Shown here in pieces: positions 29,420 to 52,648 of a stretch of DNA of 64,000 nt. Position 1 is the stretch's first letter; every line of letters starts with the position of its first letter. The notes under the pieces were generated by a model, which was not told the DNA's origin, made no database searches, and saw only the letters and a program-made list of their open reading frames with translations. Source of the stretch: an uncultured Clostridia bacterium (GTDB lineage: Bacteria > Bacillota > Clostridia > TANB77 > CAG-508); contig CALXKK010000004.1 of the NCBI GenBank assembly GCA_944388935.1, forward strand, positions 17,732 to 81,731, read 5' to 3'. The translations under genes and the position numbers were made by a program.

Positions 29420-29621
29420 GATAAAATCTTGTATAACGTAAAAGAAAGAACAAATTCTTGCTATGAGTTTGTTCTTTTTTTGCAAAAAAATGAAAGCATC
29501 AGTGAAGAAAAAAATAAAACATTGACACTTCCTTGAAATAAATCTTTTTCAGCAAAGGTATGAAAAAAGTATGTTTTGACCTTTACTTTACATAATTGTA
29601 ACACATTAAAAATGCAAATGT

Positions 29622-44015: not shown

Positions 44016-44219
44016 TAGCAAGCAAAGAGAGATTATTAAATCTCTCTATTTTTTTGCTTTAATGCAAAAGTAAAATATAAATAAATATGATATTTCAAAC
44101 TTGCAAACATTTATTATAAATGATATATATTAATCATAATTATTTGAAACCATATTGAAGCTTTATATATTATTTCACAAGGTTCCAATGATGAAAATAT
44201 AAAGAAAGAAGGTTTTTTA

Positions 44220-44816
44220 ATGGACAATGAAGCAGTAATTAACAAAAGAGTAAGGGATTTTTCAAAGGGTATTGATATTATGCAAACAATATTAATTTTC
44301 CTTATAGCTCTATTAGTACCAACATTTTTAGGAGGACTTCTAAGCAAAATTTTTGGAACAACAAGTGTTATATCTACGAATTCACAACTTATAGTTGGAA
44401 CAATTGTAAATGCAGCATTAGTAACATCAGCAATTAATTTAAAAGGATGGGCAAAAATTCTAGGAGTAGTTACAATGCCTAGTATATCTACAATATTGAG
44501 TGGATATGTATTTGGAACAGCTTCTGTATATATGGTGTATATGATACCAGCAATCTGGCTTGGTAATTTTGCATTAATTTATTCATACAAATTATTAATG
44601 CTAGGTAAAAATAAACATTATTTTCTAGCTGGTGTAGTAGGAATAGTTGTAAAAGTTGCAATTATTTTTGCATTATTTAATATAATTAATTTATTTGGTG
44701 TTTTCCCAGAAAAATTGATAGAAAACTTAAGAAATGCAATGGGATTAACTCAACTTATAACAGCTACATTAGGAGTAATAGTAGCATTTGTAATATATAA
44801 ATTAGAGAAAAAATAG
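44220..44816 (+). CDS. Integral membrane protein, ECF S-component-like
   Basis: QLIVGTIVNAAL, MIPAIWLGN, QLITA; about 6 TM segments. Confidence 0.65.
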   Translation: MDNEAVINKRVRDFSKGIDIMQTILIFLIALLVPTFLGGLLSKIFGTTSVISTNSQLIVGTIVNAALVTSAINLKGWAKILGVVTMPSISTILSGYVFGTASVYMVYMIPAIWLGNFALIYSYKLLMLGKNKHYFLAGVVGIVVKVAIIFALFNIINLFGVFPEKLIENLRNAMGLTQLITATLGVIVAFVIYKLEKK

Positions 44817-44839
44817 TATTGCCTAAAGGAAATGATAAC

Positions 44840-45511
44840 ATGTCAAAAATATTGATTGTGGAAGATGATAAAAAGTTAAGAGAAGAGTTAAAGATTTTTC
44901 TAGAAAAACATGGATACGAGGTAATAATCCTAGAAAAATTTGATAATACAATTGAATATATTTTAAAATCTAAAGCAGATTTAGTTTTATTGGATATAAA
45001 TTTACCAAATATGGATGGAGAGTATGTATGCAAAGAAATAAGAAAAGTTTCTGATGTCCCTATAATGATTGTAACTAGTAGGGATAATGAATTGGACGAA
45101 CTTTTAAGTATAAACAATGGTGCAGACCAATATATTACAAAACCATATAATATCCAAATCTTGCTTGCAAAAATAGAAAGATTATTAAAGAGAAGCAAAG
45201 ATAGTCAAACTAATCAAAATAAAATAGATTGTGGAGATTTCGTTTTGAATATTTCTAAAGGAACAATAGAAAGAGAGGATAAGGTTTTAGAGCTTACAAA
45301 AAATGAATTGAAGATTCTTCATTTCCTTGTCTTAAATAAAGGAGCAATTGTTTCTAGAAATGACATAATGGACTATTTATGGGATAGCGAAAGTTTTGTT
45401 GACGATAATACTCTTACTGTTAATATGAAAAGATTAAGAACAAAATTAGATGAAATTGGTTTAAACGATGTAATAGAGACAAAAAGAGGATTGGGGTATA
45501 TATTAAAATGA
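44840..45511 (+). CDS. OmpR-family response regulator (BceR/GraR-like)
   Basis: ILIVEDD, LLDINLP, GADQYITKP, DDNTLTVN, TKRGLGY. Confidence 0.9.
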   Translation: MSKILIVEDDKKLREELKIFLEKHGYEVIILEKFDNTIEYILKSKADLVLLDINLPNMDGEYVCKEIRKVSDVPIMIVTSRDNELDELLSINNGADQYITKPYNIQILLAKIERLLKRSKDSQTNQNKIDCGDFVLNISKGTIEREDKVLELTKNELKILHFLVLNKGAIVSRNDIMDYLWDSESFVDDNTLTVNMKRLRTKLDEIGLNDVIETKRGLGYILK

Positions 45512-46524
45512 AATTTAAAAGCTATTTAAAAGATAAAATATTATATATTGTATTGCTAATAGTTGCAATTGCAACTATAGAAATTTTTCTAATTCCATAC
45601 GAGATCCCTATATATATAAAGATATATGTTGCAGTAGCTATAATAATATCTTTTCTAATAGCATTTTTAGTAGAATATTATTCTAAGAAGAACTATTATG
45701 AGACTATAAAAAGCAGAGTAAAGGAATTACAGGAAGGATATTTAATTACAGAGGTTTTGCCTCAATCAAATTTCTTAGAAGCTAAAATACTAGAAGAGCT
45801 TATTAGAGATATAGGAAAATCTATGTTAGAAAATGTAAATAAATATAAGTATTTACAGGAAGACTATAAAGAGTACATAGAATTATGGATTCATGAAATA
45901 AAAATACCAATAGCTACAAGTAAAATGATTGTAGAGAATAACAAAAATGAAATTACAGAAAGCATTGATGAAGAATTAGATAAAATAGAGAATTACACTG
46001 AGCAAGCACTATTCTATGCAAGAAGTAATGCTGTTGAGAAAGATTATATTATACGAGAAATAAATTTAAAGGAAATAGTAAATGCAAGTATATTAAAAAA
46101 TAAAATGCAATTAATACAAAATAAAATATCAATTACCACAGAAAATATAGATAAAACAGTATATACAGATAGTAAATGGTGTATTTTTATAATAAATCAG
46201 ATAATTCAAAATTCAATAAAATATTCAAAAGAACAGAATAAAAAAATAGAAATATTTGCAGAAGAAAAGAAAGAGAAAATCATTTTAAATATAAAGGATA
46301 ACGGAATCGGAATAAAGAAAGGTGAAATTACAAGAGTTTTTGAAAAAGGTTTTACTGGAGTAAATGGAAGACTAAACGGTAAAAAGTCAACTGGAATAGG
46401 ATTATATTTATGTAAGAAATTATGTAACAAACTAGGAATAGGACTAGAACTAAATTCAGAAGAAAATGTAGGAACTGAAGTAAAATTAATATTTCCAGTA
46501 GGAAGCTATAATAAATTTAAATAA
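45508..46524 (+). CDS. Intramembrane-sensing histidine kinase (BceS/GraS-like)
   Basis: Two closely spaced TMs; WIHEIKIP, DSKW..FIINQ, KGFTG.NGR, STGIGLYL. Confidence 0.9.
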   Translation: MKFKSYLKDKILYIVLLIVAIATIEIFLIPYEIPIYIKIYVAVAIIISFLIAFLVEYYSKKNYYETIKSRVKELQEGYLITEVLPQSNFLEAKILEELIRDIGKSMLENVNKYKYLQEDYKEYIELWIHEIKIPIATSKMIVENNKNEITESIDEELDKIENYTEQALFYARSNAVEKDYIIREINLKEIVNASILKNKMQLIQNKISITTENIDKTVYTDSKWCIFIINQIIQNSIKYSKEQNKKIEIFAEEKKEKIILNIKDNGIGIKKGEITRVFEKGFTGVNGRLNGKKSTGIGLYLCKKLCNKLGIGLELNSEENVGTEVKLIFPVGSYNKFK

Positions 46525-46529
46525 ACGAA

Positions 46530-46570
46530 GCAGGTGGCACTAACAATCAAAAGATTATTGTGCCACCTGT
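46530..46570 (-). terminator. Conserved 3' hairpin of cassette 1
   Basis: CAGGTGGCAC...GTGCCACCTG; homologous to 50935-50978. Confidence 0.75.
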
Positions 46571-46592
46571 TTTACCGAGCAAAGCCAAAATT

Positions 46593-47108
46593 CTAGCCTA
46601 GCTGATGTTTAATCCAGGTCCGTATCTCCGGAATACTGGAATTGTACAGGGGGTCTCTGGACTTCCTAAACGAGACAGAGAGCTCGCCGTCTGAATTAAA
46701 ATCAACGAGGCGTCGCAAGACCTCTCCCTTATGAAGTGTGCCTTGGTAGTGACCATCGTGTAAACCCTCATCCTCCAAGCCAATAAACTGTGTAGCTTTC
46801 TCGCTCGGATCGATGAAGAAGTTTACAGGTGTTAGCAGACTACCATAAGCATTGTGTTCGTTGTACCTGAAGGTAAAACCTTCATCAAAGAAGCGTTGTT
46901 CATAAGAGAACAAGCAAACTCTGACTTCGTGCCAACCATCTTTATGTTCAATGAAGGCAGCACTGCTTTTGTATTGGTCAATCCTGAAATACAGGTATTT
47001 ATCCATGAAGTGCTTACAGGGACGAACACTGAAACTGAATTCGTTATCGAAGAAGCAATCAAGCTCCGAAATAATCGAAAACAGTTCATCTGCCATTAAC
47101 TCATTCAT
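46593..47108 (-). CDS. Unknown protein, GLHDGHYQ family, copy 1
   Basis: Paralog of 51004-51546; GGAG RBS 7 nt before ATG47108; GC-rich relative to neighbours. Confidence 0.8.
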   Translation of the reverse strand: MNELMADELFSIISELDCFFDNEFSFSVRPCKHFMDKYLYFRIDQYKSSAAFIEHKDGWHEVRVCLFSYEQRFFDEGFTFRYNEHNAYGSLLTPVNFFIDPSEKATQFIGLEDEGLHDGHYQGTLHKGEVLRRLVDFNSDGELSVSFRKSRDPLYNSSIPEIRTWIKHQLG

Positions 47109-47160
47109 TTGTTGCTCCAATTTTGTTGCGTTTGTGTCCTACGAATGTAATTAATCTATA

Positions 47161-47234
47161 AATACCTCCTATACAAATCTGTTCAACTTACAAATGTATG
47201 TCAATTATAGCACTTTATTTATATATTATCAAAT
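47161..47234 (-). promoter_or_regulatory. Conserved promoter/leader of cassette 1
   Basis: Minus strand TTGATA-N17-TATAAT with TGn extension; 56/74 identical to 51601-51674 without gaps. Confidence 0.8.
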
Positions 47235-47254
47235 CTTACAAAATTGTAAGATTT
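47231..47254 (+). promoter_or_regulatory. BceR/GraR-type binding palindrome upstream of the ABC transporter
   Basis: AAATCTTACA-aaat-TGTAAGATTT, further TGTAAG downstream, TATAAT at 47293. Confidence 0.75.
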
Positions 47255-47328
47255 ATGTAAGAAAAAACAATTGTATAGAAATAAAAAGCTAGTATAATAA
47301 AATTAAGAAATTTGAAAGGAGCTTAAAG

Positions 47329-48096
47329 ATGGAAAGAGTTTTAGAGGTTAAGAATATCGAAAAATATTATGGGAATAAATCAAATTTAACCAAAGCAATA
47401 GATAATATTAGCTTTAATATTGAAAAGGGTGAATTTGTTGGAATAATGGGAGCATCAGGCTCTGGAAAAACCACGCTTTTAAATTGTATTTCTACAATAG
47501 ACAGGGTAACAGCAGGTAAAATAATAATAAATAATCAAGATATTACTAAGCTAAAAGGAAATCAATTAAATAAATTTAGAAGAGAGGAATTAGGATTCAT
47601 ATTTCAAGATTTTAATTTGCTAGACACATTAACCGCATTCGAAAATATTGCATTAGCACTTACAATACAAAGAGTAAAGCCAAAGCAAATAGAAGAAAGA
47701 GTAAATGAAATTGCTAAGAAATTAGACATTACAGATATTTTAAATAAATATCCATATCAAATATCTGGAGGTCAAAAGCAAAGAGTTGCATCTGCAAGAG
47801 CAATAATAACAAATCCAAAGCTAATATTAGCAGATGAGCCAACAGGAGCTTTGGATAGTAAATCTGCAAGGCAGTTGTTAGAGAGCTTTGAGGATTTAAA
47901 TAAAAAATTAAATGCTACGATTTTGATGGTTACGCACGATTCGTTTACCGCTAGCTATGCAAATAGAATTTTATTTATTAAAGATGGAAAAATTTTCAAT
48001 GAACTTGTAAAGGGAGAAGACACAAGAAAACAATTCTTCGAAAAGATAATAGAAGTTCAAACCTTATTAGGAGGTGAACTTGGAGATGTTATTTAA
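47329..48096 (+). CDS. BceA-type ABC transporter ATPase
   Basis: GASGSGKTTLLN, ISGGQKQR, ADEPTGALDSKS, MVTHD. Confidence 0.92.
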   Translation: MERVLEVKNIEKYYGNKSNLTKAIDNISFNIEKGEFVGIMGASGSGKTTLLNCISTIDRVTAGKIIINNQDITKLKGNQLNKFRREELGFIFQDFNLLDTLTAFENIALALTIQRVKPKQIEERVNEIAKKLDITDILNKYPYQISGGQKQRVASARAIITNPKLILADEPTGALDSKSARQLLESFEDLNKKLNATILMVTHDSFTASYANRILFIKDGKIFNELVKGEDTRKQFFEKIIEVQTLLGGELGDVI

Positions 48097-50155
48097 ACTT
48101 GCATTAAAAAATATGAGAAAAACAATTAAGGATTTTGCAATTTACTTTTTAACATTAGTACTTGGTGTTGCAATATTTTATATGTTTAATTCTCTAGATA
48201 GCCAGGAAGCAATGTTTCAAGTTTCAAACTCTACAAGAGAAATGATAAAATTAATGATAACTATGTTAGGTTTTGTTTCTGTTTTTGTTGCAATAATATT
48301 GGGACTTTTAATTGTGTATGCAAATAATTTCTTGATAAACAGAAGAAAAAAAGAATTTGGAACATATATGTTACTTGGAATGGGAAAAGGTCAAATTTCT
48401 AGAATTTTATTATTTGAAACTATATTAGTAGGGTTAATATCTTTAATTGTAGGATTGATAATAGGAATTTTTGCTTCACAATTTATGTCTATACTGGTAG
48501 GTAAATTGTTTGCAGCAGATATGAGTAAATTTGAATTTGTATTTTCTAAAGATGCTTGTATTAAGACTTGTATATATTTTGCAGTAATGTATGTAGCAGT
48601 AATGATATTTAATACATTTACAATTTCAAGATATAAATTGATTAATTTGCTAAATGCTTCTAAGAAAAATGAACAAATAAAAATTAAAAACTTATGGGTA
48701 TGTATAATTGTATTTATTTTGGGAGCAGTTATGCTTGGTTATGCTTATTACAAAGTAACTGGAGGAATTTCAGAATTGTCTACCGAAGAGAAAATGATTC
48801 CAATTATATTAATAGGTATTGTTAGCACAATATTGATATTTTGGTCAGTATCTGGCTTTATATTAAAACTTGTTCAACTAAAGAAAAATATATATTTTAA
48901 AGATGTAAATATGTTTGTGTTAAGACAACTACATAATAAGATAAATACAACAGTTGTAAGCATGTCTGTCATATGTTTAATGTTGTTTATGACAATAACA
49001 ATACTTTCCTCATCTTTATCATTAAATAATACAATGAGAAGAGACCTGGAAAAAATGACTCCGGTAGATTTGAATCTATATAAAACAGCTAATTTGCCAG
49101 AAACAGAGAAATTTTCTAAAGCACAAATTGAAGATTCTAAAAAAACTATGATTCAAACCTTGGAAGAAAATGGCTTTGATATGAATAAACTTAAAGATGT
49201 TATTGAAATTCCAATTTATGCAACAAATGAGCTAACTTGGAGGGATACTTTAAAACCTGTATTTGAAGAAATACAAGCACAAAATCCAACACTTTTATAT
49301 GATACAGCTGAGGAAATAGTAAAAGTTTCTGATTACAATAAAATTGCTAAGTTATATGGAGAGAAAGAGTATAGTTTAAATGATGATGAATATATAATTT
49401 TATGTAATTTTGATAATATGACATCAATTAGAAATAAAGCAATTAAAGCAGGTAGTACAATAAATATAAAAGGTAAAGAATATAAATCAAAATATGATGA
49501 GTGTCAAGAAGGATATATAGAAATGGCAGCTAGCAAAATAAACACGGGAATAATTTTAGTACCGGATAGTTGCGATTTAACTGAAGATATGAAAGAAGAA
49601 GCATTTTTAGCTGCAAATTATAATGCAAATACAAAAGAGGAAAAAGAAGAAATAGAGAAAATATTTACAGGTGAAAACAATTCTGAATTCTATAATAATT
49701 TGGAAGAAAAAGATATATCAATAGATGGTATGACAAAAATATCACTTATAGAATCTAGTTCAGGTGTTGCAACAATAGTATTGTTTATCTCAATATATTT
49801 AGGTATAATATTCTTGATAGCAAGTTCAGCAATACTTGCATTAAAACAATTAACAGAAAGCTCAGATAATAAGCAAAGATATACTATTTTAAGAAAAATA
49901 GGTGCAGACGAAAAAATGATAAATGGAGCATTATTCAAGCAAATAGGAATATTTTTCTTAATGCCTTTAATATTAGCGATAATACATTCAATATTTGGAA
50001 TACAATTTGTTATGACAATGATGAGTGTATTAGCGGACGCAAAAGAATTATTACCATCAGTAATAGCAACAGTAATAATATTAGGCGTAGTTTATGGCGC
50101 ATATTTCTTAGCAACATATTTAGGTAGCAAAAACATAATAAAGGAAGAGGAATAA
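48086..50155 (+). CDS. BceB-type (FtsX-like) permease
   Basis: YANNFLINRRKKEFG, large extracellular loop, YTILRKIG. Confidence 0.9.
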   Translation: MLFKLALKNMRKTIKDFAIYFLTLVLGVAIFYMFNSLDSQEAMFQVSNSTREMIKLMITMLGFVSVFVAIILGLLIVYANNFLINRRKKEFGTYMLLGMGKGQISRILLFETILVGLISLIVGLIIGIFASQFMSILVGKLFAADMSKFEFVFSKDACIKTCIYFAVMYVAVMIFNTFTISRYKLINLLNASKKNEQIKIKNLWVCIIVFILGAVMLGYAYYKVTGGISELSTEEKMIPIILIGIVSTILIFWSVSGFILKLVQLKKNIYFKDVNMFVLRQLHNKINTTVVSMSVICLMLFMTITILSSSLSLNNTMRRDLEKMTPVDLNLYKTANLPETEKFSKAQIEDSKKTMIQTLEENGFDMNKLKDVIEIPIYATNELTWRDTLKPVFEEIQAQNPTLLYDTAEEIVKVSDYNKIAKLYGEKEYSLNDDEYIILCNFDNMTSIRNKAIKAGSTINIKGKEYKSKYDECQEGYIEMAASKINTGIILVPDSCDLTEDMKEEAFLAANYNANTKEEKEEIEKIFTGENNSEFYNNLEEKDISIDGMTKISLIESSSGVATIVLFISIYLGIIFLIASSAILALKQLTESSDNKQRYTILRKIGADEKMINGALFKQIGIFFLMPLILAIIHSIFGIQFVMTMMSVLADAKELLPSVIATVIILGVVYGAYFLATYLGSKNIIKEEE

Positions 50156-50239
50156 CAGAAATTTGAGGCTGTTCGTAAAATTACTTTTATGGAAAAATAG
50201 TAATATCTAACTCAATTTCTGATAAGAAAGAAGGTGGCA

Positions 50240-50929
50240 ATGATGAAAAAAATAATACTTGTAATATTACTTATATTATTAAGCTTTGGAGCTATTTTTG
50301 TAAGCAAAGGCTATGATATGTACAAAGAAGCAATAGAAGAAACTCCTCTAGAAAAAAAGGTTGAAGAAATACAATCAAAAAAGAATTATACTAAACTTTC
50401 AGAATTGCCACAAACATATATAAATGCTGTGATTTCTGTAGAAGACCATAGGTTTTACAAGCATCATGGAATAGATGTAATTGCAATTGGACGAGCTATT
50501 ATAAATGATATTAAAGCAAGAGACTTAGTAGAAGGTGGAAGTACAATAACTCAGCAGATTGCAAAAAATGAATATTTTACACAAGAAAAGAAATTTACAA
50601 GAAAAATTGCGGAAGTTTTTATGGCTCATGAATTAGAGAAAAATTATTCAAAAGATGAAATATTGGAATTATATATAAACACAATTTATTTTGGAAATGG
50701 ATATTATAATATTGTAGATGCATGTAAAGGCTATTTTGGAAAAGAGCCTAAAGATATGACTGATGGAGAGTGCATAATGCTTGCAGGAATACCAAATGCT
50801 CCATCTGTATACAATCCCAAAGAAAATTCTACACTTGCAAAACAAAGACAAAAGCAAGTAGCAGATAAAATGGTGGAATATGGATATTTAACGGAAGAAG
50901 AGAAAAATAAAATATTAAATAGTAAGTAA
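50240..50929 (+). CDS. Monofunctional peptidoglycan transglycosylase (GT51)
   Basis: EDHRFYKHHG, GGSTITQQIAKN, RKIAE, KDEILELYIN. Confidence 0.9.
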   Translation: MMKKIILVILLILLSFGAIFVSKGYDMYKEAIEETPLEKKVEEIQSKKNYTKLSELPQTYINAVISVEDHRFYKHHGIDVIAIGRAIINDIKARDLVEGGSTITQQIAKNEYFTQEKKFTRKIAEVFMAHELEKNYSKDEILELYINTIYFGNGYYNIVDACKGYFGKEPKDMTDGECIMLAGIPNAPSVYNPKENSTLAKQRQKQVADKMVEYGYLTEEEKNKILNSK

Positions 50930-50934
50930 GAAAT

Positions 50935-50978
50935 AGCCGGTGGCACAAATAATCTTAATGATTATTGTACCACCGGCT
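50935..50978 (-). terminator. Conserved 3' hairpin of cassette 2
   Basis: AGCCGGTGGCAC...GTACCACCGGCT. Confidence 0.75.
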
Positions 50979-51003
50979 TAAAATGTGTAGCCAAGGCTAG
51001 TAC

Positions 51004-51546
51004 TTAGCCTACAAGCTTTCTAATCCAGTCCCGGATTTCCGGAATCCTGGACTCGTAATGGAGGAAGTTTGCTAACCGATAGGATACCTCAAAATTAAGA
51101 GGGGTGATTCTTACGTATCGATGCAGAATCTCTCCACCGTGAAGAATACTTTGATAGTGGCCATCGTGTAAGCCAGAGTCTCTAATGCCAACGAACTGCG
51201 TGGTAAATGCATCATGCTCGATGAAGAAGTTAATAGGCTTCTCCATAAGCCAAAGTTCACTCAGGGTGTTTTGGAATATGAAGGAAAAACCTTCTGCATA
51301 GTATGGTTCGTTTTCATATAGCAACCATAGTCTGAACTCTATGGTGCCATCCCCATGCTTAAAGTAAGCGCCGGTGCAGTGATACTTTTTTCCAATAACC
51401 AAATGGATATATCCATCTAGGCCAATCGAGTCAAGCTGAACGTCGAAGCCAAACACCTTCTTAAAGAATCTTCCAAGGGTCTCAATATCAAAGGAGATGG
51501 ACTTCTTGTCCATATCGAACTTTTCTCCGTCAAAAAGGACACTCAT
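51004..51546 (-). CDS. Unknown protein, GLHDGHYQ family, copy 2
   Basis: Paralog of 46593-47108; GGAG RBS 6 nt before ATG51546; GC-rich. Confidence 0.8.
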   Translation of the reverse strand: MSVLFDGEKFDMDKKSISFDIETLGRFFKKVFGFDVQLDSIGLDGYIHLVIGKKYHCTGAYFKHGDGTIEFRLWLLYENEPYYAEGFSFIFQNTLSELWLMEKPINFFIEHDAFTTQFVGIRDSGLHDGHYQSILHGGEILHRYVRITPLNFEVSYRLANFLHYESRIPEIRDWIRKLVG

Positions 51547-51600
51547 GATGTACTCCATTCTGTAAGCGTACCAACGAAACAAAAAGAATTATGTTACAAT

Positions 51601-51674
51601 ATTACCTCCAATACAAATTAGTTCAACTAACAATTACAAACCAATTATAGCATATTATGTAGATTACATCAAAT
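51601..51674 (-). promoter_or_regulatory. Conserved promoter/leader of cassette 2
   Basis: Minus strand TTGATG-N17-TATAAT with TGn extension. Confidence 0.8.
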
Positions 51675-51760
51675 AATAAAGGTAGAAAAGGAAATGATTG
51701 ATAATTACTCACCTTAGTGGTATTATATAGAAAATTTAGTAAGTCAATCAAGGAGTAACT

Positions 51761-52357
51761 ATGGTAGAAAATTTTATAGAAAAAATAGAGATAGAGGATG
51801 AAATTAACAATGAAGTAATAGAAGGTATTTCAAAAAAGAATCTTAGTATATACAAAAAAGATATAAATCATTCTAAATTTATACATACAGAAATAATTGA
51901 TAGTGAGTTAGAAAAAGTATATTTTAAGGATGTAACTTTTGATAATTGTAATTTTTCTAATACTTCTTTTGAAACTTGTAGCTTTATAAATTGCAAATTT
52001 GTAAATTGTAAAATGACTGGATGTAGTTTTATAGAAAATACATTTATGTCAGTGCACATAAAAGATTCAAACTTAAATTATGCAAATATGTCCAATACTA
52101 ATTTTAATAATTTAAAATTAAAAGATACAACATTTATAAACTCATATATACAAGATTCAATTTTGAAAAATACGAAATTTGATAATATTGACTTTACAAA
52201 ATCACAAATATTTAATACTCGTTTAAAAGACATAGATTTGTCAACATGTATAATACAAGGTTTATCAACAACATTAGCAGATATAAAAGGTGCTATAATA
52301 AATGAACTTCAAATTATGGATTTGGCATATCTATTAAATATAAAAATAAAAGATTAG
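51761..52357 (+). CDS. Pentapeptide repeat protein
   Basis: VTFDN CNFSN TSFET CSFIN CKFVN repeats. Confidence 0.9.
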   Translation: MVENFIEKIEIEDEINNEVIEGISKKNLSIYKKDINHSKFIHTEIIDSELEKVYFKDVTFDNCNFSNTSFETCSFINCKFVNCKMTGCSFIENTFMSVHIKDSNLNYANMSNTNFNNLKLKDTTFINSYIQDSILKNTKFDNIDFTKSQIFNTRLKDIDLSTCIIQGLSTTLADIKGAIINELQIMDLAYLLNIKIKD

Positions 52358-52366
52358 GAGGAAAAA

Positions 52367-52648
52367 ATGATTAAACATATAGTAATGTGGAAATTTAAAG
52401 AAAATACAGAAAAAGAAATGAATGAATTTTTAGAAGGATTAAAAGCTTTAGAAAATCAAATTAAAGAGATAAAAAGTATGCAAGTTGGCAAAAATATTGA
52501 TAATGATGAATATGATGCAATTCTAATTTCTGAGTTCGAAAATCTAGAAGATTTACAAAAATATAAAACAGATCCAAGGCATGTTAGAGTTTCTAATATG
52601 TGCAAAGAAATTAGAACAAAAAGAACTGCATTTGATTTCGAGGAATAG
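52367..52648 (+). CDS. Dabb (stress-responsive A/B barrel) protein
   Basis: MIKHIVMWKFK...Y..DPRH. Confidence 0.85.
   Translation: MIKHIVMWKFKENTEKEMNEFLEGLKALENQIKEIKSMQVGKNIDNDEYDAILISEFENLEDLQKYKTDPRHVRVSNMCKEIRTKRTAFDFEE

What the first reader, a model, noticed from the sequence alone, without database searches (positions are those of the whole stretch)
46530..51674. Two dispersed, self-contained, GC-rich single-gene cassettes encoding an unknown GLHDGHYQ protein family
Seen: 46530-47234 and 50935-51674 have the same build, read on the minus strand against the + strand flow: sigmaA promoter, conserved leader, ORF of about 170-180 aa, conserved hairpin. The proteins share EGF.F, P.NFFI, TQF.G..D.GLHDGHYQ..LH.GE.L.R (24/40 identical in this core) and Y.S.IPEIR.WI...G, but their N-termini diverge. 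Hand-counted 60-mers are 47-50% GC (46621-46740, 51121-51180) versus 28% in the adjacent kinase gene (46441-46500). Both sit between unrelated housekeeping genes, with no transposase, integrase, terminal inverted repeat or obvious target duplication. Inference: a dispersed family of promoter-ORF-terminator units, possibly spread in trans (RT- or recombinase-mediated) or a diversifying effector/immunity repertoire. The conserved HDGH plus a downstream H suggests a metal-binding site. I do not recognise the protein family.
Basis: partly seen in the sequence, partly recalled or inferred. Interest (0 to 1): 0.85.

Follow-up and report, generated by a model that had tools for sequence, protein, structure and literature searches.

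The report
Orphan gene pair flanking Bce module
Two related, foreign-looking genes of an undescribed small protein family sit as stand-alone units on either side of an antimicrobial-peptide resistance operon in a chicken-gut bacterium; they look like ordinary acquired accessory genes in variable slots, not a new kind of mobile element.

Summary
Two minus-strand genes (171 and 180 aa, 36% identical, E 9e-33) each carry a near-consensus sigmaA promoter, a ~95-nt leader and a very stable 3' hairpin. Their GC3 is 0.50/0.51 against a genome mean of 0.158.

- These are the only two copies of protein, leader and hairpin in the 1.63-Mb genome. The leader occurs nowhere else in the public collections scanned.
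- The family is rare: 24 hits among 1.84 billion representatives. It occurs in 10 of 26 genomes of the genus and matches no Pfam, NCBIfam, PHROG or PADLOC model. A confident AlphaFold model has no convincing fold match.
- GLHDGHYQ is private to these two proteins.
- Both copies lie in hypervariable slots flanking a Bce-type module. Relatives leave these slots empty or fill them with other small genes.
- No TIR, TSD or shared recombination site was seen. The conserved unit includes the untranscribed promoter, which argues against RT-mediated copying.
- Orthologues show purifying selection (dN/dS 0.08-0.28).
- About 25 other GC-rich one- or two-gene islands exist in the genome, so this is general horizontal acquisition.
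- Copy A's promoter abuts the BceR-type operator, a weak lead to function.

The parts
46531..46569 (-). Cassette A 3' hairpin. It starts 7 nt after the kinase stop codon, so it can serve as a bidirectional terminator for the kinase gene (+) and gene Z-A (-).
   Evidence: Pattern match. RNA fold of 46525-46600: -31.1 kcal/mol, z -5.6, 0 of 200 shuffles as good. Inverted repeat I5. The simple terminator scan did not call it.
46593..47108 (-). Gene Z-A: 171 aa from ATG 47108, stop TAG 46593-46595. Soluble and acidic, with no membrane segment.
   Evidence: identical to P0001; max hydropathy 0.67. GC3 0.497. AlphaFold model pLDDT 85, pTM 0.84.
47109..47203 (-). Leader of Z-A, about 95 nt from the -10 element to the ATG. 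It holds the conserved block 47163-47188 (ending in GGAGGTA) and the working Shine-Dalgarno GGAG at 47115-47118.
   Evidence: No significant RNA structure (z -1.1).
47204..47232 (-). SigmaA-type promoter of Z-A: TTGATA, 17-nt spacer, TATAAT with extended TG.
   Evidence: 11 of 12 consensus positions.
47233..47252 (.). Host Bce-type response-regulator operator, a palindrome (ATCTTACAAAATTGTAAGAT). It abuts the Z-A -35 element on one side and faces the weak-(-35) promoter of the ABC ATPase gene on the other. It belongs to the host, not the cassette: it is kept in empty-site genomes.
   Evidence: Fits the published consensus AnnTTACnAnnnnGTnAG on both strands and is one of 3 such loci in the genome (consensus from PMC10858260, passages read). 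Conserved in the empty sites of G011, G015, G008 and G005.
50936..50977 (-). Cassette B 3' hairpin. It starts 7 nt after the transglycosylase stop codon.
   Evidence: Fold -37.2 kcal/mol, z -8.1. Homologous to the hairpin behind G013-type genes: local score 44 against a shuffle mean of 15, 0 of 2000 shuffles as good.
51004..51546 (-). Gene Z-B: 180 aa from ATG 51546, stop TAA 51004-51006.
   Evidence: P0003 differs at one residue. GC3 0.506. Sister to Z-A in the family tree, support 100/97.
51547..51643 (-). Leader of Z-B, about 97 nt, with the conserved block 51603-51628.
   Evidence: No significant structure (z +1.5).
51644..51672 (-). SigmaA-type promoter of Z-B: TTGATG, 17-nt spacer, TATAAT with extended TG. 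No Bce-type operator lies next to it.
   Evidence: 10 of 12. No box in this region.
44819..46524 (+). Context: OmpR-family response regulator (44819-45511) and a short histidine kinase (45508-46524).
   Evidence: Pfam Response_reg + Trans_reg_C; HATPase_c.
47329..50155 (+). Context: ABC ATPase (47329-48096) and a 693-aa FtsX-type permease (48074-50155), i.e. a BceAB-like transporter lying between the two cassettes.
   Evidence: Pfam ABC_tran; FtsX.
50234..52357 (+). Context for slot B: a monofunctional transglycosylase gene (50234-50929) and a pentapeptide-repeat gene (51761-52357).
   Evidence: Pfam Transgly; Pentapeptide.

Best explanation
Z-A and Z-B are two sister paralogues of a rare, undescribed family of small soluble proteins. 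The predicted fold is an N-terminal helix, a sheet of about nine beta-strands and a C-terminal helix.

Each gene is an autonomous transcription unit: a strong sigmaA promoter, a ~95-nt leader, the ORF, and a stable hairpin that can also terminate the convergent host gene.

They are horizontally acquired accessory genes. They sit in two hypervariable intergenic slots on either side of the transporter genes of a Bce-type (BceRS-BceAB-like) antimicrobial-peptide resistance locus.

They are not members of a self-mobilising cassette family. The slots are general gain/loss hotspots. Their contents are most simply exchanged by recombination in the conserved flanking genes, or by illegitimate insertion (inferred).

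The high GC reflects foreign origin, as it does for about 25 other small GC-rich islands in the same genome.

Function is not shown. My best guess, at about 20%, is a cytoplasmic accessory protein tied to the cell-envelope stress response. The reason is that the slot-A promoter abuts the BceR-type operator at the same spacing in two deeply diverged clades of the family.
For: Real genes:
- Confident model, pLDDT 85, pTM 0.84.
- Family conserved along its whole length.
- dN/dS 0.08-0.28 among four orthologues, with dS 0.15-0.23, similar to the neighbouring ABC gene at 0.06-0.24.

Rare orphan family:
- 24 of 1,835,955,588 representatives at E<=1e-3.
- 10 of 26 genus genomes, 2 of 301 in the order sample, 1 of 399 scored in the class sample. 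Each count includes G000.
- 0 families in Pfam and NCBIfam at E<=10. PADLOC gave 0 families and PHROGs nothing below E 0.11.

Foreign composition:
- GC3 0.497 and 0.506 against a mean of 0.158, sd 0.058, placing them among the top 7 of 1135 ORFs.
- About 25 other GC3 0.4-0.58 islands exist.
- Homologues in G015 (GC3 0.55) and in another genus, G313 (0.49 against 0.10-0.15 in its neighbours), show the same pattern.

Hotspots:
- Slot A, 19 genomes examined: empty in 4, X and/or Y only in 6, and a Z gene in 9 including G000.
- Slot B: the transglycosylase gene lies next to the pentapeptide gene in 5 genomes. Of these, 3 are empty, 1 holds an unrelated 108-aa ORF, and only G000 holds Z.
- G011, the relative whose ABC ATPase is most like G000's (95%), has an empty slot A and no Z.
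- One metagenome contig skips 46526-47224. Another replaces 50927-51756 with 1104 other letters.

No mobility signature:
- Only 2 copies of protein, leader and hairpin.
- Leader absent from genome contigs and metagenome contigs.
- No bounding TIR or TSD.
- No shared flank among 28 island ORFs.

Operator link:
- The box fits the published consensus.
- 8 of 14 Z genes in the genus have it within 260 nt upstream. In 6 of them it ends ~25 nt before the -10 element.
Against: - No donor was found. No GLHDGHYQ-type relative appeared in genome contigs, viral contigs or metagenome contigs, and none in the exhaustive protein search beyond P0001 and P0003.
- The non-coding promoter, leader and hairpin (76-80% identity) are better conserved between A and B than the ORF (52% nt). 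Simple acquisition does not predict this. It needs either constraint on the flanks or ORF exchange inside a conserved socket.
- All but one of the 14 Z genes in the genus lie in slot A or B. This could mean long residence and local duplication rather than repeated import.
- Both Z promoters are near-consensus and would not need an activator. Copy B has no operator. A BceR link is therefore weak.
- No expression data exist, and function is untested.
Confidence: 0.6

Rival explanations
1. Resident family with a conserved 'expression socket'. An ancestral Z gene has long sat next to the BceR operator in slot A. Promoter and terminator are kept by selection, while ORFs are replaced or diverge quickly. 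Copy B is a local copy of the A-type unit, from the -35 element to the hairpin. The high GC3 is a property of the family, not a sign of recent import.
For: - The operator-to-(-10) spacing is the same (~25 nt) in G000-A (clade I) and in five clade-II genes.
- The hairpin is homologous across clades.
- Flanks are more alike than the ORFs.
- A and B are sisters.
- 13 of 14 Z genes in the genus lie in slot A or B.
- G013-type genes are inherited vertically with their neighbours.
- Every family member measured has GC3 well above its host.
Against: - G011, the relative whose ABC ATPase is most like G000's, has an empty slot A and no Z.
- GC3 of 0.5 is hard to keep over the long A/B branches (0.73 and 1.11 changes per site) in a genome at 0.158, unless selection holds it there, and no such selection is known.
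- About 25 unrelated GC-rich islands show that import from higher-GC donors is common here.
- The extended -10 is a common promoter form in this genome (91 copies of TGCTATAAT), so part of the promoter likeness may be convergence.
Confidence: 0.2
2. A family of cassettes mobilised in trans, by reverse transcriptase or a site-specific recombinase, that spreads promoter-ORF-terminator units.
For: - The units have sharp, matching ends, at the -35 element and at the hairpin.
- A contig joint lies at those ends.
- Z genes occupy three different slots in the genus, plus a fourth kind of site in G313.
- A conserved hairpin could in principle be a recombination site.
Against: - There are only two copies, and no unrelated ORFs carry these flanks.
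- The untranscribed promoter lies inside the conserved unit, which excludes a simple RNA intermediate.
- No TSD or TIR.
- No recombinase or RT among the neighbours scanned.
- The slots also hold unrelated genes without these flanks.
- Other GC-rich islands share no site.
Confidence: 0.05
3. A diversifying immunity, antitoxin or anti-effector repertoire: small, variable cytoplasmic proteins kept as orphan immunity genes.
For: - The proteins are small, soluble and acidic.
- Paralogue arrays of up to three occur in G014.
- Distribution is patchy.
- Other orphan small genes, X and Y, share the hotspot.
Against: - No toxin or secretion gene lies next to any copy examined.
- No match to the immunity or defence models in Pfam or PADLOC.
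- Purifying, not diversifying, selection where measurable.
Confidence: 0.08
4. A clade-specific metal-binding protein or enzyme that uses H117, D118, H120 and H126 of the GLHDGHYQ..LH stretch.
For: The motif is identical in both diverged copies. It lies in a loop modelled with confidence, block pLDDT 81-89.
Against: - The motif is absent from the other 19 of the 21 aligned family members, which have unrelated residues there.
- Invariant family residues lie elsewhere (E76, I99, Q107, S157).
- No fold or sequence match to any metalloprotein.
- The geometry could not be checked, because no model coordinates are available to scripts (one search found no non-FASTA file in /data).
Confidence: 0.07

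Closest known systems
Horizontally acquired orphan (ORFan) accessory genes in intergenic hotspots or 'islets' flanked by conserved core genes
   Same: - Compositional outliers.
- Patchy presence with clean empty sites.
- Hotspots that hold different unrelated genes in different genomes.
- No mobility genes seen.
- Many such islands in the same genome.
   Different: The two copies keep recognisably related promoters, leaders and terminators although the ORFs have diverged to 36% identity. One promoter sits at a fixed distance from a two-component-system operator.
Bce-type antimicrobial-peptide resistance modules (BceRS-BceAB, PsdRSAB, GraXSR-VraFG) and their regulons
   Same: - The locus has an OmpR-type regulator, a short kinase, an ABC ATPase and a large FtsX permease.
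- An operator fitting AnnTTACnAnnnnGTnAG lies upstream of the transporter genes.
- Precedent for an extra cytoplasmic cofactor gene in such a module: GraX in S. aureus (PMC3128592, abstract and passages read).
   Different: Z has no sequence or fold likeness to any described module component. It is transcribed away from the transporter genes, is missing from most genomes that have the module, and copy B has no operator. Regulation by BceR is not shown.
Integron gene cassettes (ORF plus attC hairpin)
   Same: Single-ORF units that end in an imperfect, conserved hairpin.
   Different: Z cassettes carry their own promoter. They are not arrayed next to an integrase or attI site. The hairpin is followed by T-rich sequence like a terminator. 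No other gene in the genome shares the hairpin.

Membership tests
Any curated protein family (Pfam-A, NCBIfam, PHROGs, PADLOC) | Significant profile-HMM match | tested here: not met
   Pfam and NCBIfam: 0 families at E<=10 for both proteins. PADLOC: 0 families for 5 family members. PHROGs: nothing below E 0.11 for the same 5.
Any solved or viral predicted fold | Structural match clearly above background | tested here: inconclusive
Bce-type regulon member | Operator matching the Bce-like response-regulator consensus just upstream of the promoter | tested here: met
   Met for copy A only: box 47233-47252 abuts the -35 element at 47232-47227. Not met for copy B, which has no box.
Bce-type regulon member | Induction by peptide antibiotics through the response regulator | not testable with these tools
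   No RNA run holds the stretch. This needs culture work.
Transposable element (IS or MITE) | Terminal inverted repeats and a target-site duplication at the ends of the insert | tested here: not met
   Empty-site comparison and repeat search show no repeats at the cassette ends. The only exact 14-nt direct repeat (46406-46419 and 47251-47264) lies inside the kinase gene and beside the operator, not at the insert ends.
Retro-copied (RT-mediated) unit | The copy is limited to the transcribed region | tested here: not met
   A/B likeness includes the -35 and -10 elements (77% across that segment) and stops just upstream of the -35 (30% beyond it).
Integron cassette | Promoterless ORF with an attC site, arrayed beside an intI gene and attI site | tested here: not met
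   Each unit has its own promoter. The copies are single and 4.4 kb apart among host genes. I did not search the genome for an integrase gene.
Polymorphic-toxin immunity protein | Adjacent cognate toxin gene, or a match to a known immunity family | tested here: not met
   Neighbours are regulator, kinase, ABC, transglycosylase and pentapeptide genes. Neighbours of homologues are X, Y or housekeeping genes. No immunity-family match.

The most novel reading that the evidence does not exclude
Probability: 0.1. Interest if true: 0.6.

Novelty: new member of a known kind. Interest (0 to 1): 0.35.

Why it matters
This finding matters modestly. It adds a well-delimited, confidently folding orphan family with no known structural relative, confined almost entirely to one genus of small-genome, very AT-rich gut bacteria.

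It also shows that this genome is peppered with about 25 small GC-rich imports. Of the 10 I sampled, 8 have no Pfam family. That makes the genome a useful case for studying how single foreign genes, with their own promoters and terminators, settle into a streamlined genome.

The fixed position of the slot-A promoter beside a Bce-type operator gives a cheap, testable lead. The question is whether these modules recruit lineage-specific accessory proteins.

The finding does not reveal a new mobile-element mechanism.

Tried and rejected
- Word-indexed homologue search found only the query itself.
- ESM Atlas, two queries: no hit at 0.8 or above.
- Rfam on 46000-52500: only a chance miRNA hit, E 0.38, 22.7 bits against a gathering score of 110.
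- Leader as structured RNA: rejected, z -1.1 and +1.5.
- Peptide-pattern scans with the two-protein alignment A4 found no relative in genome contigs, viral contigs or metagenome contigs.
- Leader pattern: 0 matches in metagenome contigs and genome contigs.
- RNA evidence: no RNA holder listed. The RNA runs offered were single-cell libraries that only share the label 'organism A' with DNA run X3, and I did not lay them.
- Parts of the stretch without cover in some runs are not used as evidence.
- Complex prediction of Z-A against the kinase cytoplasmic part, the regulator and the ABC ATPase returned no answer: score 0.00, mark 0.32.
- Promoter-core likeness (18 of 18 nt between copy B and the G015 gene) is played down, because TGCTATAAT occurs 91 times in the genome.
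- Mini-ORFs after the conserved GGAGGT in the leaders were considered by eye and dropped, as they are not conserved between A and B.
- The 14-nt direct repeat 46406/47251 was rejected as a TSD, because it does not bound the insert.
- Literature: no paper holds the family's motifs. No paper was found with the Bce-like / divergently transcribed / hypothetical protein term set. Supplements were not consulted and could hold operator lists relevant to the box.
- Rows left out. Of the 24 hits, I fetched 18. P0001 is the window's own protein, P0007, P0009 and P0014 are fragments, and the long multi-stretch hits P0021 and P0022 were not examined.
- The tree used 25 rows. It omitted P0002, P0004, P0005, P0006 and P0008 (which stand for genus loci already included) and the fragment P0016.
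- The ORF set behind the GC3 statistics is a crude list of ATG ORFs of 150 aa or more and includes some non-genes.

Full report
**1.
- Two minus-strand ORFs lie at 46593-47108 and 51004-51546.
- The supported starts are ATG 47108 and ATG 51546, each 6 nt after a GGAG. They give 171 and 180 aa and agree with database proteins P0001 and P0003.
- The proteins are 36% identical, E 9e-33.
- GC rises from 0.22-0.30 in the flanks to 0.42-0.48 inside the ORFs.
- At third codon positions the contrast is extreme: 0.497 and 0.506 against a genome mean of 0.158, sd 0.058. That places them among the top 7 of 1135 crude ORFs.

**2. Each gene is a complete transcription unit.**
- The promoter scan ranks TTGATA-17-TATAAT (47232..47204) and TTGATG-17-TATAAT (51672..51644), both with an extended TG, among the four best of 41 promoter-like sites in 46300-51900.
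- The -10 element lies 95 and 97 nt before the start codon.
- Both 3' hairpins are very stable: -31.1 and -37.2 kcal/mol, z -5.6 and -8.1, with 0 of 200 shuffles as good.
- Each hairpin starts 7 nt after the stop codon of the convergent host gene, so it can end transcription from both sides. The simple terminator scan did not call them.
- Between the copies, promoter (77%), leader (76%) and hairpin (80%) are more alike than the ORF (52% nt) or the spacers (41-45%). Likeness stops just upstream of the -35 element and just past the hairpin.
- The leaders show no significant RNA structure and match no Rfam family.

**3. The family is not dispersed.**
- Protein, leader and hairpin each occur exactly twice in the 1.63-Mb genome.
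- The leader motif has no exact match in genome contigs or metagenome contigs.
- No unrelated ORF was found with these flanks.

**4. The protein family is real, rare and unnamed.**
- Six same-genus genomes gave 25-32% identical homologues.
- A nine-sequence profile found the family in 10 of 26 genus genomes, with up to three copies in one genome.
- Wider samples gave 2 of 301 in the order and 1 of 399 scored in the class. Each count includes G000.
- An exhaustive profile search of 1.84 billion representatives gave 24 hits at E<=1e-3 and 11 at E<=1e-10.
- No library recognises the family.
- AlphaFold gives a confident model: pLDDT 85, pTM 0.84. It has an N-terminal helix, about nine beta-strands and a C-terminal helix.
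- The proteins have no membrane segment and are acidic.
- In the 21-sequence alignment the invariant residues are M1, E76, I99, Q107 and S157, and the C-terminal 'S.IPE.Q.W' motif is widely kept. GLHDGHYQ occurs only in the two window proteins. Other clades have Cys-rich or unrelated residues nearby.
- Four orthologues show dN/dS of 0.08-0.28, with dS like that of the adjacent ABC gene. They are therefore functional genes under purifying selection, inherited with their neighbours in that subclade.

**5. Both copies sit in hotspots around a Bce-type module.**
- The neighbours are an OmpR-type regulator, a short kinase, an ABC ATPase, a 693-aa FtsX permease, a transglycosylase and a pentapeptide-repeat protein.
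- Slot A is the gap between the kinase gene and the ATPase gene. Across the 19 genomes examined it looks like this:

| Slot A content | Genomes |
|---|---|
| Empty (about 125-190 nt) | 4 (G011, G015, G008, G005) |
| Y only | 1 |
| An X-like gene only | 1 |
| X and Y | 4 |

- X and Y are further small genes without a Pfam family.
- G011, the relative whose ABC ATPase is most like G000's (95%), has no Z at all.
- Contigs from four independent studies reproduce cassette A and its junctions. Three of the four (X3, X8, X10) also bridge cassette B.
- One contig joins 46525 to 47225, which are exactly the cassette's ends. Another replaces 50927-51756 with 1104 other letters.
- The tool warns that joints at this likeness setting can come from related organisms. 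That is how I read them: as relatives with other slot contents.

**6. No mobility signature was found.**
- The empty-site comparison and a repeat search show no terminal inverted repeats and no target duplication at the cassette ends.
- The conserved unit includes the untranscribed promoter, which a simple RNA intermediate cannot explain.
- The genome holds about 25 further one- or two-gene islands with GC3 of 0.4-0.58. Of 10 sampled, 8 have no Pfam family, one is an alpha-amylase and one a GNAT acetyltransferase.
- These islands share no flanking sequence, and each has its own unrelated terminator hairpin.
- The Z cassettes are therefore two cases of a general influx of single foreign genes, not a special cassette system.
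- A Z homologue in another genus (G313) repeats the pattern. It is a lone minus-strand gene, GC3 0.49, between two plus-strand genes (tRNA-synthetase-like by eye) at GC3 0.10-0.15.

**7. Relationships within the family.**
- A and B are sisters (support 100/97) on long branches. They sit in a clade with the other GC-rich genus member (G015, GC3 0.55) and four metagenomic proteins.
- The resident slot-A genes of other species (GC3 about 0.30) form separate clades.
- Inference: synonymous sites between A and B are saturated, yet both keep GC3 at 0.5 in a genome at 0.158. I therefore infer that they diverged elsewhere and arrived recently.
- Two findings cut the other way. The hairpin is homologous across clades (B against G013-type, 0 of 2000 shuffles as good). 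The operator-to-promoter spacing in slot A is also shared across clades. These keep a 'resident socket with exchanged ORFs' reading alive, which I put at about 20%.

**8. A lead to function.**
- The palindrome at 47233-47252 fits the published Bce-like response-regulator consensus AnnTTACnAnnnnGTnAG on both strands. It is one of three such loci in the genome (consensus from PMC10858260, passages read). BceR-type regulators bind inverted repeats (PMC3128592, passages read).
- The box is kept in empty-site genomes, so it belongs to the host's transporter promoter.
- It abuts the -35 element of Z-A. Eight of 14 Z genes in the genus have the box upstream, and 6 have it at the same ~25-nt distance from the -10 element.
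- Positions inferred from the hexamers, with no mapped transcription starts: the box centre lies near -46 for Z-A and near -62 for the ABC promoter. By eye, the ABC promoter has a weak -35 element.
- Against a regulatory link: the Z promoters are near-consensus and need no activator, and copy B has no box.
- I put a Bce-linked accessory role at about 20%. It is a hypothesis, not a finding.

**9. Verdict.** The interpretation as a trans-mobilised or diversifying cassette family is not supported. The best reading is a pair of acquired orphan accessory genes in variable slots of a Bce-type locus. Interest is moderate to low (0.35). The protein family and its possible tie to the Bce operator are the parts worth a bench test.

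Noticed in passing
G000 genome, e.g. C1:192618-194024, C2:17680-19515, C2:54392-55255, C6:57267-59547, C7:62343-63360, C11:165-2549, C21:12238-13833, C30:6631-7536: About 25 short islands of one to three genes have GC3 of 0.40-0.58 in a genome at 0.158. Each is flanked by host-like genes and has its own unrelated terminator hairpin. Of 10 sampled, 8 have no Pfam family, one is an alpha-amylase and one a GNAT acetyltransferase. Several form small paralogue groups: three on C6 and two on C7.
   Followed up: partly
Slot A in relatives, e.g. L008:2573-2956 (X) and L008:2018-2389 (Y): Two more small orphan families share the kinase/ABC hotspot. X is 125-136 aa, looks helical by eye and has GC3 0.40. 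Y is about 125 aa with GC3 0.22. Neither has a Pfam match. They occur with or without Z.
   Followed up: partly
L026:1420-1893 (G313, another genus of the same family): A distant Z homologue (E 1.2e-8) is a lone minus-strand gene with GC3 0.49. It lies between two plus-strand genes (glycyl- and tryptophanyl-tRNA-synthetase-like by eye) at GC3 0.10-0.15, and has its own promoter-like sequence and a GC-rich hairpin.
   Followed up: partly
window 46406-46419 and 47251-47264: An exact 14-nt direct repeat, ATTTATGTAAGAAA. One copy is inside the 3' end of the kinase gene. The other is the half-site-like element just after the operator. It may be chance, or a second regulator half-site within the kinase coding region.
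   Followed up: no
window 47163-47203 and 51603-51643: The conserved leader block contains TGTAAG/TGTATA (copy A) and TGTTAG/TGTATT (copy B), which resemble operator half-sites, about 17 nt apart. In G013-type genes the conserved GGAGGT is the working Shine-Dalgarno, but here it lies ~50 nt upstream of the start codon. Seen by eye and not tested.
   Followed up: no
G000 C10:55275-55290; window 29588-29601: A second strict CTTACA-N4-TGTAAG palindrome elsewhere in the genome, and a looser TTACA-N4-TGTAA palindrome inside the window. They could be further targets of Bce-type regulators.
   Followed up: no
Slot B in relatives (L028-L033, L038-L041; L037): Upstream of the pentapeptide gene, ten genomes carry a 310-406-aa ORF. 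In six of them a 77-80-aa ORF follows it. G011 instead carries a 108-aa ORF that looks hydrophobic by eye. This intergenic site is therefore also a general variable spot.
   Followed up: no
window 46575-46599 and 50985-51009: Both cassettes have a second small stem-loop overlapping the stop codon (GGCUAG.../GGCUAA...), upstream of the main hairpin.
   Followed up: no
window 44200-52400 in public runs: Twenty DNA runs from seven studies hold part or all of the stretch. By their records most are chicken-gut or faecal metagenomes, and one study is a synthetic metagenome. In two of the four runs laid (X8, X10), the cassette bins carry only low depth while the flanks gain depth from related organisms.
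   Followed up: partly
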